Notes under the pieces: generated by a model
The model's database searches: none
Seen by the model: the letters and a program-made list of their open reading frames with translations, nothing else
Told to the model about the DNA's origin: nothing
Translations under genes and position numbers: made by a program
Virus record (IMG/VR): IMGVR_UViG_2690316318_000024
From: a virus
Lineage: Duplodnaviria; Heunggongvirae; Uroviricota; Caudoviricetes
Strand: one strand, 5' to 3'
Length of the DNA: 9,273 nt
Shown here: positions 2,939-3,073 of the stretch, piece after piece
Layout: the number at the start of each line of letters is the position of its first letter
How positions within the stretch are numbered: position 1 is the first letter of the stretch

Positions 2939-3073
2939 AGCTTTCTCCTTTTTAGGTAGTTAAGTTGTTACGAGTTGCAAGAATACAACATTAACAACTT
3001 TTATCACAACTTTTAGGTGTTGGAAAGCTAAAACATAAAGTTGTAACCTCATCAAAAAAGAGAGGGATATGTT
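2939..3073. promoter_or_regulatory. Divergent immunity promoter/operator region (OR-like): pR-like promoter for cro on the minus strand, weak pRM-like promoter for cI on the plus strand, repeated AAGTTGT/ACAACTT half-sites
   Basis: Half-sites at 2962-2970 (aagttgtta), 2992-3000 (taacaactt, its inverted partner), 3005-3012 and 3038-3045. 16-bp element acaacttttaggtgtt at 3006-3021. Candidate pR: -35 TTGTGA (3009..3004), 18-bp spacer, -10 TATTCT (2985..2980). Candidate pRM: -35 TTGGAA 3020-3025, -10 TAACCT 3044-3049. Confidence 0.55.

What the first reader, a model, noticed from the sequence alone, without database searches (positions are those of the whole stretch)
2939..3073. Operator half-site family shared with a second operator (4691-4741)
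AAGTTGT/ACAACTT half-sites recur in the cI/cro intergenic region (including an inverted pair 2962-2970 / 2992-3000), and a near-identical 16-bp element occurs at both 3006-3021 (acaacttttaggtgtt) and 4726-4741 (acaacttaaaggtgtt). At the second site it lies immediately downstream of a near-consensus -35/-10 pair. This defines candidate OR and OL operators for the CI-like repressor and gives a testable immunity specificity.
Basis: seen in the sequence. Interest (0 to 1): 0.45.

Follow-up and report, generated by a model that had tools for sequence, protein, structure and literature searches.

The report
Prophage repressor operators, OR and OL
The repeated ACAACTT/AAGTTGT words are real and are most likely the binding sites of this E. 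coli prophage's CI-like repressor and its Cro at its two early-promoter regions: an ordinary lambda/434-style immunity switch whose specificity I found described nowhere.

Summary
ACAACTT occurs 8 times against 1.9 expected, six of them in the two intergenic regions, and the 16-mer is at 3006-3021 and 4726-4741 (14 of 16 identical).

The real unit is a 15-bp imperfect dyad, ACAAC-N5(A/T)-GTTGT. There are four strong copies: a 3006-3020 and b 3030-3044 between cro and cI, and d 4683-4697 and c 4726-4740 around a near-consensus leftward early promoter. Each has one perfect and one single-mismatch half.

All 92 related loci examined (CI 58-100% identical, E. coli to Proteus) keep this 2+2 layout amid diverged flanks.

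Homology with the heteroimmune prophage e14 breaks at about 2669 and 4742. Both operator sets therefore lie inside the swappable immunity module.

Heteroimmune relatives carry other motifs and other recognition helices.

The CI DNA-binding domain is closest to 434 repressor and keeps its Gln-Gln-Ser helix start, which fits ACAA outer bases.

ACAACTT is half-site plus spacer. The 2962/2992 inverted pair is not one operator. The second region starts at 4683.

This is a new member of a known kind. Binding itself is untested.

The parts
2690..2938 (-). cro-like gene (82 aa, YdaS-family HTH; predicted recognition helix VKQQHVWNW)
   Evidence: Pfam YdaS_toxin E 7.8e-15. PHROG 35, transcriptional repressor. 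Helix conserved in the homologous cassettes.
2954..2968 (-). Site f: weak or decayed operator ACAAC-TTAAC-TACCT. Only the ACAAC half (GTTGT on +, 2964-2968) is conserved. It lies about +5 to +19 of the inferred PR.
   Evidence: AAGTTGT is invariant in 12 of 13 aligned loci and at a fixed offset in 41 of 45 distinct variants. It is a full dyad in the Morganella and Proteus loci.
2980..2985 (-). Inferred PR -10 hexamer (TATTCT on the - strand)
   Evidence: Positionally conserved -10 in 12 of 13 loci; it is TATAAT in four of them. Inference, no transcript data.
2985..2989 (+). Lone ACAAC half-site abutting the PR -10
   Evidence: Present at this offset in 39 of 45 distinct OR variants. No dyad partner. 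Function unresolved.
2994..2998 (+). Lone ACAAC half-site, first copy of the ACAACTTTTA direct repeat (12-bp period with site a)
   Evidence: Direct repeat D1. Present at this offset in 42 of 45 variants.
3004..3009 (-). Inferred PR -35 hexamer (TTGTGA on the - strand); overlaps site a by 4 bp
   Evidence: coordinates. Inference.
3006..3020 (+). Operator a: ACAAC-TTTTA-GGTGT. Centre about -40 of PR and about -43 of PRM (OR2-like).
   Evidence: 20.3 bits; 1 mismatch to the dyad; nearly invariant in 13 loci; found at -68/-69 from the cI start in almost all 92 loci.
3020..3025 (+). Inferred PRM -35 hexamer TTGGAA
   Evidence: Invariant TTGGA in 13 loci; paired with a conserved TAnnCT -10 at 18 nt. 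Inference.
3030..3044 (+). Operator b: AAAAC-ATAAA-GTTGT. It lies inside the PRM spacer, centre about -19 (OR3-like).
   Evidence: 20.4 bits; 24 bp centre to centre from site a in nearly all loci.
3044..3049 (+). Inferred PRM -10 hexamer TAACCT (weak)
   Evidence: TA...T conserved in 12 of 13 loci. Inference.
3074..3760 (+). CI-like repressor gene (228 aa): 434-type HTH (Q30 Q31 S32, K35) plus an S24 autopeptidase domain. Motifs seen and assigned by analogy with LexA/lambda CI: Ala101-Gly102 (cleavage site), Ser143 and Lys181 (catalytic pair).
   Evidence: Pfam HTH_3 and Peptidase_S24; 434 repressor is the best solved relative, E 3.3e-14; residue positions.
3743..4633 (-). BRCT-domain accessory gene (296 aa, PHROG 3989) convergent with cI, inside the immunity module
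   Evidence: Pfam BRCT; PHROG 3989 E 1.5e-128. Same position in 7 of the 8 homologous cassettes looked up; the eighth (L008) has an IS there.
4654..4682 (-). Candidate promoter of the BRCT gene: TTGAAC (4682-4677), 17 nt, TG-C-AAGGAT (4659-4654). This puts operator d at about -43.
   Evidence: Positionally conserved in 12 of 13 loci. Only 7 of 12 consensus matches. Hypothesis.
4683..4697 (+). Operator d: ACCAC-ATAAA-GTTGT. It sits between the two divergent -35 hexamers, and its last T is the first T of the pL -35.
   Evidence: 21.6 bits. It is a perfect palindrome, AACAACATAAAGTTGTT, in the Proteus and Providencia loci. Present in all loci that reach this far.
4697..4725 (+). pL-like early leftward promoter TTGACA-17-TAAATT
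   Evidence: 10 of 12 consensus matches; the same in 12 of 13 loci.
4715..4719 (+). Lone ACAAC half-site in the pL spacer, abutting the -10
   Evidence: The only conserved part of an otherwise variable spacer; present in 48 of 52 distinct OL variants.
4726..4740 (+). Operator c: ACAAC-TTAAA-GGTGT. It covers about -6 to +9 of pL and is the last element before the module boundary at about 4742.
   Evidence: 23.9 bits; always 43 bp from site d. In homologues the imperfect half flips sides, ACACC...GTTGT. e14 homology resumes at 4742-4744.

Best explanation
The window carries the immunity region of an e14-like lambdoid prophage of E. coli, spanning about 2669 to 4742: cro, OR, cI, a BRCT-domain accessory gene, and OL/pL.

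The repeated words belong to 15-bp imperfect dyads, ACAAC-N5-GTTGT, with an all-A/T centre. I infer that dimers of the CI-like repressor, and most likely of Cro, bind them through a 434-type helix-turn-helix.

Inferred mechanism at OR:
- Site a overlaps the -35 of the rightward promoter PR, so bound CI shuts off cro and the replication genes.
- Site a also sits at about -43 of the weak cI promoter PRM, the position from which lambda and 434 repressors activate their own synthesis.
- Site b lies inside the PRM spacer and would limit cI expression at high repressor level.
- Site f, with one good half, lies just downstream of the PR start.

Inferred mechanism at OL:
- Site c covers the pL start and blocks it.
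- Site d abuts the pL -35.

RecA-stimulated self-cleavage of the S24 domain would lift repression.

What is shown and what is inferred: the sequence, its statistics, its conservation and its module linkage are shown. Promoter positions, occupancy and regulatory signs are inferred.
For: 1. Enrichment and clustering. Four sites score 20-24 bits with a matrix trained on other species, against a random maximum averaging about 9 bits.
2. Phylogenetic footprint: in 13 loci with CI 58-85% identical, the sites and adjacent hexamers are the invariant columns, while the rest of both intergenic regions diverges.
3. All 92 loci show two sites about 68 and 44 bp upstream of cI, and two sites exactly 43 bp apart at OL (one truncated locus does not reach OL). 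This holds where the BRCT gene is deleted or replaced by an IS.
4. Dyad behaviour: site d is a perfect palindrome in Proteus and Providencia. In site c the imperfect half switches sides between lineages.
5. Module linkage: similarity to heteroimmune e14 stops at about 2669 and resumes at 4742-4744, 2-4 bp after site c. e14 has its own TGTACC repeats at the equivalent OR and pL positions.
6. Helix and motif change together. Members with [ST]QQ[SA]..K keep ACAAC, including a 52%-identical one. A Stx1 phage with SQPAIQK has ATAAC-N4-GTTAT, three copies in OR and one before N. An Arsenophonus relative with AQSSIWK has TATCGC-TTAA-GCGATA.
7. The CI N-terminal domain is closest to 434 repressor (E 3.3e-14) with the Q-Q-S helix start intact. 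434 operators have conserved outer 4+4 bases and an uncontacted centre that tunes affinity (PMC1636474). That those outer bases are ACAA...TTGT is from my own knowledge.
8. Cro has KQQ at the equivalent place.
9. Promoter hexamers are positionally conserved next to the sites.
Against: - There is no binding, footprint or transcript evidence. All promoter starts are guessed from hexamers.
- PR and PRM are weak consensus matches in this window (8 and 7 of 12) and failed the standard scan.
- Their apparent conservation is partly tied to the overlapping operators, so it is not independent evidence.
- OR has only two strong dyads, not the classical three, and the third (f) has a degenerate half.
- Sites a and b score equally (20.3 and 20.4 bits), which does not by itself predict activation before autorepression.
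- Three or four conserved lone half-sites (2985, 2994, 4715, and the f half) are not explained by a simple dimer-on-dyad model.
- Most of the 92 loci are close relatives, so the counts overstate independent support.
Confidence: 0.85

Rival explanations
1. The dyads are bound mainly or only by Cro, or by another module-encoded protein, and CI recognises something else.
For: Cro is co-inherited in the same module, and its predicted recognition helix VKQQ(Q/H)VWNW is as conserved as CI's. Helix-motif covariation therefore cannot separate the two proteins. The lone direct-repeat half-sites might reflect a second binding mode.
Against: No other repeated motif is present in either intergenic region for CI to use. 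CI's helix start is the 434 Q-Q-S that fits ACAA. A 52%-identical CI in a locus without an adjacent cro still has a perfect AACAAC-GTTAT-GTTGTT upstream of its gene. In known lambdoid phages CI and Cro share operators (general knowledge).
Confidence: 0.07
2. The similarity between 2994-3021 and 4715-4741 is only a relic of an ancient duplication of a promoter region. The words are promoter or spacer sequence, not protein-binding sites.
For: OR and OL share a longer 27-28-bp resemblance (ACAACT...ACAACTTWWAGGTGTT), and the same order of elements, GTTGT / ACAAC / ACAAC-GGTGT.
Against: A neutral relic would not stay invariant while the flanks diverge across CI proteins only 58% identical. It would not keep dyad symmetry with the imperfect half flipping sides. 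It would not be replaced wholesale by another repeated motif in heteroimmune relatives at the same positions.
Confidence: 0.03
3. The sites are targets of a host factor (a nucleoid protein, DnaA, LexA or similar) rather than of phage regulators.
For: The centres are A/T-rich, and TTATCACAA at 3001-3009 loosely resembles a DnaA box.
Against: The motif travels with the immunity module, not with the host or with the e14 backbone. It is kept in hosts from Escherichia to Proteus and Hafnia. TTATCACAA mismatches the DnaA consensus at a fixed position (seen in sequence). There is no CTGT-N8-ACAG LexA box.
Confidence: 0.03

Closest known systems
Phage 434 repressor/Cro and their operators (OR1-3, OL1-3)
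   Same: The CI N-terminal domain is the closest sequence relative among solved structures (E 3.3e-14), with the Gln-Gln-Ser start of the recognition helix conserved. Both systems use dyad operators with conserved outer bases and a non-conserved A/T-rich centre. Both have operator sets at OR and OL, and a divergent cI/cro pair. 434 sites are 14 bp with conserved outer 4+4 bases (PMC1636474); ACAA...TTGT is from my own knowledge.
   Different: Here the dyad is 15 bp (ACAA-N7-TTGT against ACAA-N6-TTGT in 434) with a conserved fifth base C. 434 Gln33 is Lys35 here. There are two strong sites per region rather than three, plus lone half-sites. CI identity to the 434 domain is only 42%. Cro is a YdaS-family protein, not a paralogue of the repressor domain as 434 Cro is.
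Lambda OR/OL switch architecture (PR/PRM, OR2 activation, OR3 autorepression)
   Same: The inferred PR and PRM starts are 83 bp apart. One operator sits at about -43 of PRM and overlaps the PR -35, and one is at about -19 of PRM. Operator centres are 24 bp apart. The repressor has an S24 self-cleaving domain. A second operator set lies at pL beyond accessory genes.
   Different: No strong OR1-like site lies over the PR -10; a half-decayed site lies downstream of the PR start instead. The OL sites are 43 bp apart and flank the promoter rather than being adjacent. cI has a leader with a ribosome-binding site. The accessory gene is convergent with cI and has its own candidate promoter, whereas rexAB is co-transcribed with cI.
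e14 prophage immunity region (cohE/ymfK, croE/ymfT) of E. coli K-12
   Same: Same backbone: ymfL, the pL leader block, the STnc100-like element, xisE and intE. Same gene order, with module junctions at about 2669 and 4742.
   Different: Different repressor, different Cro and different repeated motif (TGTACC-based palindromes) at the equivalent OR and pL positions, so presumably heteroimmune. e14 has no BRCT gene.
CI of Stx1-converting phages (e.g. SH2026Stx1), the nearest relative in a complete, annotated phage genome in that collection (41.6% identity; an unverified, unannotated Salmonella phage fragment, S.Kent 1-2-1, is slightly closer at 44.5%)
   Same: Same protein architecture. Dyad operators repeated in OR at 24-25-bp spacing and again before N.
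   Different: The half-site is ATAAC with N4 spacing, and the recognition helix is SQPAIQK. OR has three full dyads.

Membership tests
Lambdoid immunity region (cI - OR - cro, plus OL/pL) | Divergently transcribed repressor and cro genes separated by a short control region | tested here: met
   cI 3074-3760 (+) and cro 2938-2690 (-), 135-bp gap.
Lambdoid immunity region (cI - OR - cro, plus OL/pL) | Repressor with an N-terminal HTH and a C-terminal LexA-type self-cleaving S24 domain | tested here: met
   Pfam HTH_3 E 1.4e-15 and Peptidase_S24 E 1.7e-14. Ala101-Gly102, Ser143 and Lys181 motifs present. Cleavage itself not tested.
Lambdoid immunity region (cI - OR - cro, plus OL/pL) | Several copies of one dyad motif in OR overlapping divergent promoters, and further copies at a second early promoter | tested here: met
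   Sites a and b (plus weak f) in OR, and d and c at pL. Promoter hexamers are conserved. Only two strong sites per region.
Lambdoid immunity region (cI - OR - cro, plus OL/pL) | Operators and regulators inherited together as an exchangeable module on a shared backbone | tested here: met
   e14 homology breaks at about 2669 and 4742. The module is found in 48 of 5426 E. coli genomes, while the backbone element 5590-5830 is in 1828.
Lambdoid immunity region (cI - OR - cro, plus OL/pL) | Repressor physically binds the operators and confers superinfection immunity | not testable with these tools
   Needs EMSA or footprinting and immunity tests.
434-type repressor/operator recognition | DNA-binding domain homologous to 434 repressor, with the Gln-Gln-Ser start of helix 3 | tested here: met
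   phmmer E 3.3e-14 to 1PER/2OR1; TTQQSIEQLENG aligns with LSQQSVAKIENG. QQ is kept in all ACAAC-type homologues.
434-type repressor/operator recognition | Operator outer bases ACAA...TTGT with an uncontacted, non-conserved centre | tested here: met
   The perfect halves are ACAA(C)/(G)TTGT, and the centres are A/T-only but variable. The 434 ACAA consensus is from my own knowledge; the 4+4 conservation is from PMC1636474.
434-type repressor/operator recognition | 14-bp operator (half-site centres 10 bp apart) | tested here: not met
   All four sites, and all homologues, are 15 bp: ACAAC-N5-GTTGT.
434-type repressor/operator recognition | Three operators in each of OR and OL | tested here: not met
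   Two strong dyads per region, plus a degenerate third in OR and lone half-sites.
434-type repressor/operator recognition | Same immunity specificity as 434 (imm434) | tested here: not met
   The N-terminal domain is only 42% identical, Gln33 is replaced by Lys, and the operator length differs. It works like 434 but is not imm434.

The most novel reading that the evidence does not exclude
The two control regions may be mirror-image double switches. Operator d lies at about -42 or -43 of both pL and a conserved, weak, extended -10-type promoter for the convergent BRCT-domain gene. This is the same geometry as operator a and PRM. CI bound at d would then activate a lysogen-expressed accessory gene, possibly anti-phage, while c blocks pL. 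On this reading the gene is wired into the immunity module as a CI-dependent lysogenic-conversion function across Enterobacterales. The conserved lone ACAAC half-sites abutting the -10 hexamers of PR and pL would mark a second, non-dyad binding mode of CI or Cro.
Probability: 0.25. Interest if true: 0.5.

Novelty: new member of a known kind. Interest (0 to 1): 0.3.

Why it matters
It gives a concrete, testable operator definition for an immunity type that is widespread in prophages of E. coli, Salmonella, Klebsiella, Citrobacter, Serratia, Hafnia, Yersinia, Morganella, Providencia and Proteus. The definition is the sequence ACAAC-N5-GTTGT, four sites, and their positions relative to four candidate promoters. 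No sequenced phage in the collection searched has a CI more than 45% identical.

The operators barely change while the repressor diverges to 58% identity. The whole group is therefore predicted to be one immunity group, which bears on superinfection exclusion and on prophage competition across genera.

It is also a natural variant of the classic 434 recognition problem: the same Gln-Gln-Ser helix, but one extra central base pair and Lys in place of Gln33.

Beyond that, it is a textbook arrangement.

Tried and rejected
1. The 9-bp inverted pair 2962-2970 / 2992-3000 as a single operator. Rejected: the arms are 30 bp apart centre to centre and in tail-to-tail orientation. The outer bases are not conserved in homologues. 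The arms are the f half-site and a lone half-site.

2. A fifth operator at 5739-5753 (ACAACTTTATGCTGT; 1 mismatch, 14 bits). Rejected as immunity-linked: it lies inside an STnc100-like element found in 1828 E. coli genomes, and it is base-for-base identical in heteroimmune e14.

3. 3225-3241 inside cI (10.4 bits). This is chance level.

4. A full third dyad over the PR -10 (2985-2999, ACAAC-ATTAA-CAACT). It scores only 2.1 bits.

5. A plus-strand promoter between f and a, by analogy with pL. The -10 candidates end in C and are not conserved as hexamers.

6. A DnaA box at 3001-3009. It mismatches the consensus.

7. Rfam search for a known RNA in the pL leader. No hit.

8. Full-text search for the operator strings. 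Only unrelated hits.

9. PADLOC for the BRCT protein. Only a weak partial hit to the candidate family PDC-S48.

10. BstA, which holds a similar position after cI in other prophages. It came up in the literature search. I did not compare sequences. The protein here carries a BRCT domain and showed no KilA-N match, whereas, from memory, BstA has a KilA-N-like N-terminus.

Full report
**What the window is.** The window is part of an e14-like lambdoid prophage of E. coli. It is 99.6% identical over 2690-4900 to a chromosomal region annotated with ymfL, xisE and intE.
- The gene at 3074-3760 (+) encodes a 228-aa protein with HTH_3 and Peptidase_S24 domains.
- The gene at 2938-2690 (-) encodes an 82-aa YdaS-family HTH protein in the cro position.
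- A 296-aa BRCT-domain gene (4633-3743, -) is convergent with cI.
- Then come a 220-bp gap and rightward genes that lead to xis/int.

**Checking the observation.**
- ACAACTT occurs 8 times on both strands against 1.89 expected. Six copies lie in the two gaps.
- The inverted pair 2962-2970 / 2992-3000 and the direct repeat ACAACTTTTA (2994 and 3006) are exact.
- The two 16-mers are at the stated coordinates and differ at 2 of 16 positions.
- TTGACA-17-TAAATT at 4697-4725 is the best promoter match in 2600-5200 (10 of 12) and ends one base before the second 16-mer.

**What the unit really is.** Read on both strands, each 16-mer is an imperfect dyad: ACAAC-TTTTA-GGTGT and ACAAC-TTAAA-GGTGT. Two more copies appear in the opposite orientation: AAAAC-ATAAA-GTTGT (3030-3044) and ACCAC-ATAAA-GTTGT (4683-4697).
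- The pattern ACAACNNNNNGTTGT with at most one mismatch has 5 hits against 0.33 expected.
- Each site has one perfect half and one half with a single mismatch, and the mismatch sits at a different position in each site.
- All four centres are A/T only.

**Related loci.** I collected homologous cassettes from one scan of species-representative genomes, from look-ups of graded CI homologues, and from a scan of viral contigs. Together these gave 92 loci with CI 58-100% identical, from Escherichia, Salmonella, Shigella, Raoultella, Serratia, Cronobacter, Hafnia, Yersinia, Morganella, Providencia and Proteus, plus one Pseudomonas lundensis assembly.
- In alignments of 13 diverse loci, the invariant columns are the four dyads and the hexamers next to them. 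Mean column identity is only 63-68%.
- Site d is the perfect palindrome AACAAC-ATAAA-GTTGTT in Proteus and Providencia.
- In site c the imperfect half is on the right in some lineages (ACAAC...GGTGT) and on the left in others (ACACC or ACCAC...GTTGT). That is what symmetric recognition by a dimer predicts.
- A weight matrix built without the window's own 17-mers scores the four window sites at 20-24 bits. The maximum in random sequence averages about 9 bits.
- Scanned over all loci, the matrix finds two sites at about -68 and -44 from the cI start and two sites exactly 43 bp apart at OL, and almost nothing else. This holds even where the BRCT gene is internally deleted or replaced by an IS.

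**Linkage to the immunity module.** Alignment with the K-12 e14 prophage shows near-identity up to about 2669, the start of ymfL. Near-identity returns from 4742-4744 onward, 2-4 bp after site c.
- Between these points e14 has a different repressor (ymfK) and a different cro (ymfT).
- At the equivalent OR and pL positions e14 has its own repeated TGTACC-based palindromes.
- The module occurs in 48 of 5426 complete E. coli genomes. A backbone piece further right occurs in 1828.

Both operator sets are therefore part of the exchangeable immunity cassette.

**Which protein reads them.** The CI N-terminal domain is most similar to 434 repressor among all solved structures (E 3.3e-14). It aligns without gaps through helix 3: 434 TTQQSIEQLENG against LSQQSVAKIENG here.
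- The Gln-Gln pair is kept in every homologue that has ACAAC sites, including a 52%-identical protein whose upstream region carries AACAAC-GTTAT-GTTGTT.
- Relatives with other helix starts have other dyads. A Stx1 phage with SQPAIQK has ATAAC-N4-GTTAT, three copies in OR and one before N. An Arsenophonus relative with AQSSIWK has TATCGC-TTAA-GCGATA.
- 434 operators are 14-bp sites with conserved outer 4+4 bases and a variable, uncontacted centre that tunes affinity (PMC1636474). The ACAA...TTGT consensus, and the roles of Gln28, Gln29 and Gln33, are from my own knowledge.
- Here the outer bases are again ACAA...TTGT, but there is one more central base pair and a conserved fifth base C.
- 434 Gln33 corresponds to Lys35 here. 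A Lys contact to the G of that C:G pair is a guess.
- Cro has KQQ at the start of its predicted recognition helix, and this too is conserved. The comparison therefore cannot separate CI sites from Cro sites. Sharing, as in lambda and 434, is the simplest reading.

**How it probably works (inferred).** Positionally conserved hexamer pairs suggest four promoters:

| Promoter | Strand | -35 | Spacer | -10 | Note |
|---|---|---|---|---|---|
| PR | - | TTGTGA (3009-3004) | 18 nt | TATTCT (2985-2980) | -10 is TATAAT in four homologues |
| PRM | + | TTGGAA (3020-3025) | 18 nt | TAACCT (3044-3049) | weak |
| pL | + | TTGACA (4697-4702) | 17 nt | TAAATT (4720-4725) | 10 of 12 matches |
| BRCT-gene candidate | - | TTGAAC (4682-4677) | 17 nt | TG-C-AAGGAT (4659-4654) | 7 of 12 matches |

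With start sites guessed 7 nt after each -10:
- Site a is at -40 of PR, overlapping its -35, and at -43 of PRM.
- Site b is at -19 of PRM.
- Site f is at +12 of PR.
- Site c is at +1 of pL.
- Site d is at -42 of pL and -43 of the BRCT-gene promoter.

The PR and PRM starts are 83 bp apart, and sites a and b are 24 bp apart. As far as I recall, both figures are close to those of lambda OR.

In a lysogen CI would block PR through a (and f) and pL through c. It would stimulate PRM from a and damp it through b. The S24 domain (Ala101-Gly102, Ser143, Lys181) would provide SOS induction.

Weak points:
- PR and PRM are poor matches in this window and were not called by the standard scan.
- Sites a and b score equally.
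- None of the start sites is measured.

**What does not fit.** Conserved half-sites without partners remain: GTTGT at 2964-2968 and ACAAC at 2985-2989, 2994-2998 and 4715-4719. They keep fixed offsets in 87-93% of distinct variants.
- Site f is a full dyad in the Morganella and Proteus loci, so it looks like a third operator whose second half has decayed in Enterobacteriaceae.
- The copies at 2985 and 4715 abut the -10 hexamers of PR and pL.
- I cannot tell whether they are cooperative extensions, Cro-specific contacts or relics.

**Comparison and verdict.** This works like the 434/lambda switch, and its repressor domain is a 434 relative. It is not imm434, because operator length, a key helix residue and the number of strong sites all differ.

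No phage genome in the collection searched has a CI above 45% identity, and the operator strings do not appear in the searchable literature.

It is a new member of a well-known kind. Interest is modest. The more novel possibility is CI-dependent activation of the linked BRCT-domain gene from operator d. It rests only on geometry and conservation.

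Noticed in passing
window 3743-4633 (-); homologues in L001-L004, L006, L007, L009-L013: A 296-aa BRCT-domain protein (PHROG 3989, unknown function) with an N-terminal region of DG(I/V)(I/V)xxEE-type repeats sits convergent to cI inside the immunity module, in 7 of the 8 homologous cassettes looked up (the eighth has an IS there). This is the position that rexAB-type accessory genes occupy. It gives a weak partial hit to the PADLOC candidate family PDC-S48 (E 2.4e-7). Distant homologues (33% identity) lie in the first 2-4 kb of the Vibrio phage K139/kappa genome records. One E. coli lineage carries an internal deletion of it (L048 type).
   Followed up: partly
window 4654-4682 (-): A conserved candidate promoter for the BRCT gene (TTGAAC-17-TGcAAGGAT) places operator d at about -43. 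This mirrors operator a and PRM, and suggests CI-activated expression in lysogens.
   Followed up: partly
window 4744-4814 (+): The pL leader carries a block, AACAGGCAGGACGCCCACGAAGTAGCCGCC, that is invariant in seven loci. It is followed by a hairpin with compensatory changes (CCTGG/CCAGG, CCGGT/ACCGG, CCCGA/TCGGG), all enclosed by a GCGAA/TTCGC stem. The same block follows pL in heteroimmune e14, so it belongs to the backbone. There is no Rfam match. It could be an antitermination or other leader RNA.
   Followed up: partly
window 4822-4854: A G+C-rich hairpin is called as an intrinsic terminator on the - strand (4841-4822). On the + strand it is followed by GCTCTTTAACAA (4843-4854), which, from memory, matches the rrn-type boxA core. 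Hairpin followed by boxA is also, from memory, the order in rrn antiterminators. A second terminator-like hairpin lies on the - strand at 4769-4753.
   Followed up: no
window 5590-5813 (+): An STnc100-like sRNA match scores 43.2 bits, just under the gathering score of 47. The element is in 1828 of 5426 complete E. coli genomes, including K-12 e14, where it overlaps the annotated ymfH. It contains the operator look-alike at 5739-5753, which is identical in e14.
   Followed up: partly
window 1390-1464 (-), inside the replication-initiator-like ORF 824-1606: A spurious mir-5880 hit marks a long imperfect hairpin built of repeated GTCAGAATCTGAC-type words. The encoded protein has SDxSK repeats. 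These are probably origin iterons inside the O-like gene.
   Followed up: no
window 3070-3076: GTTGTG, which spans the GTG start codon of cI, is conserved in 39 of 45 distinct OR variants although the spacer between ribosome-binding site and start otherwise varies. It could be another half-site or a constraint on translation initiation.
   Followed up: no
L001 (Pseudomonas lundensis assembly JAWQUI010000002.1): A complete cassette whose OR nearly matches that of a Serratia plymuthica prophage (L009) sits in a Pseudomonas genome assembly. This suggests recent transfer or a contaminated or misassigned assembly.
   Followed up: no
L099 1885-1985 and 2690-2740 (E. coli K-12 e14): e14's own control regions show TGTACC-based palindromes at OR (for example CTTGTACC-TTAAC-GGTACAAG) and around its TTGACA pL promoter. 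These give a candidate operator set for CohE/CroE.
   Followed up: no
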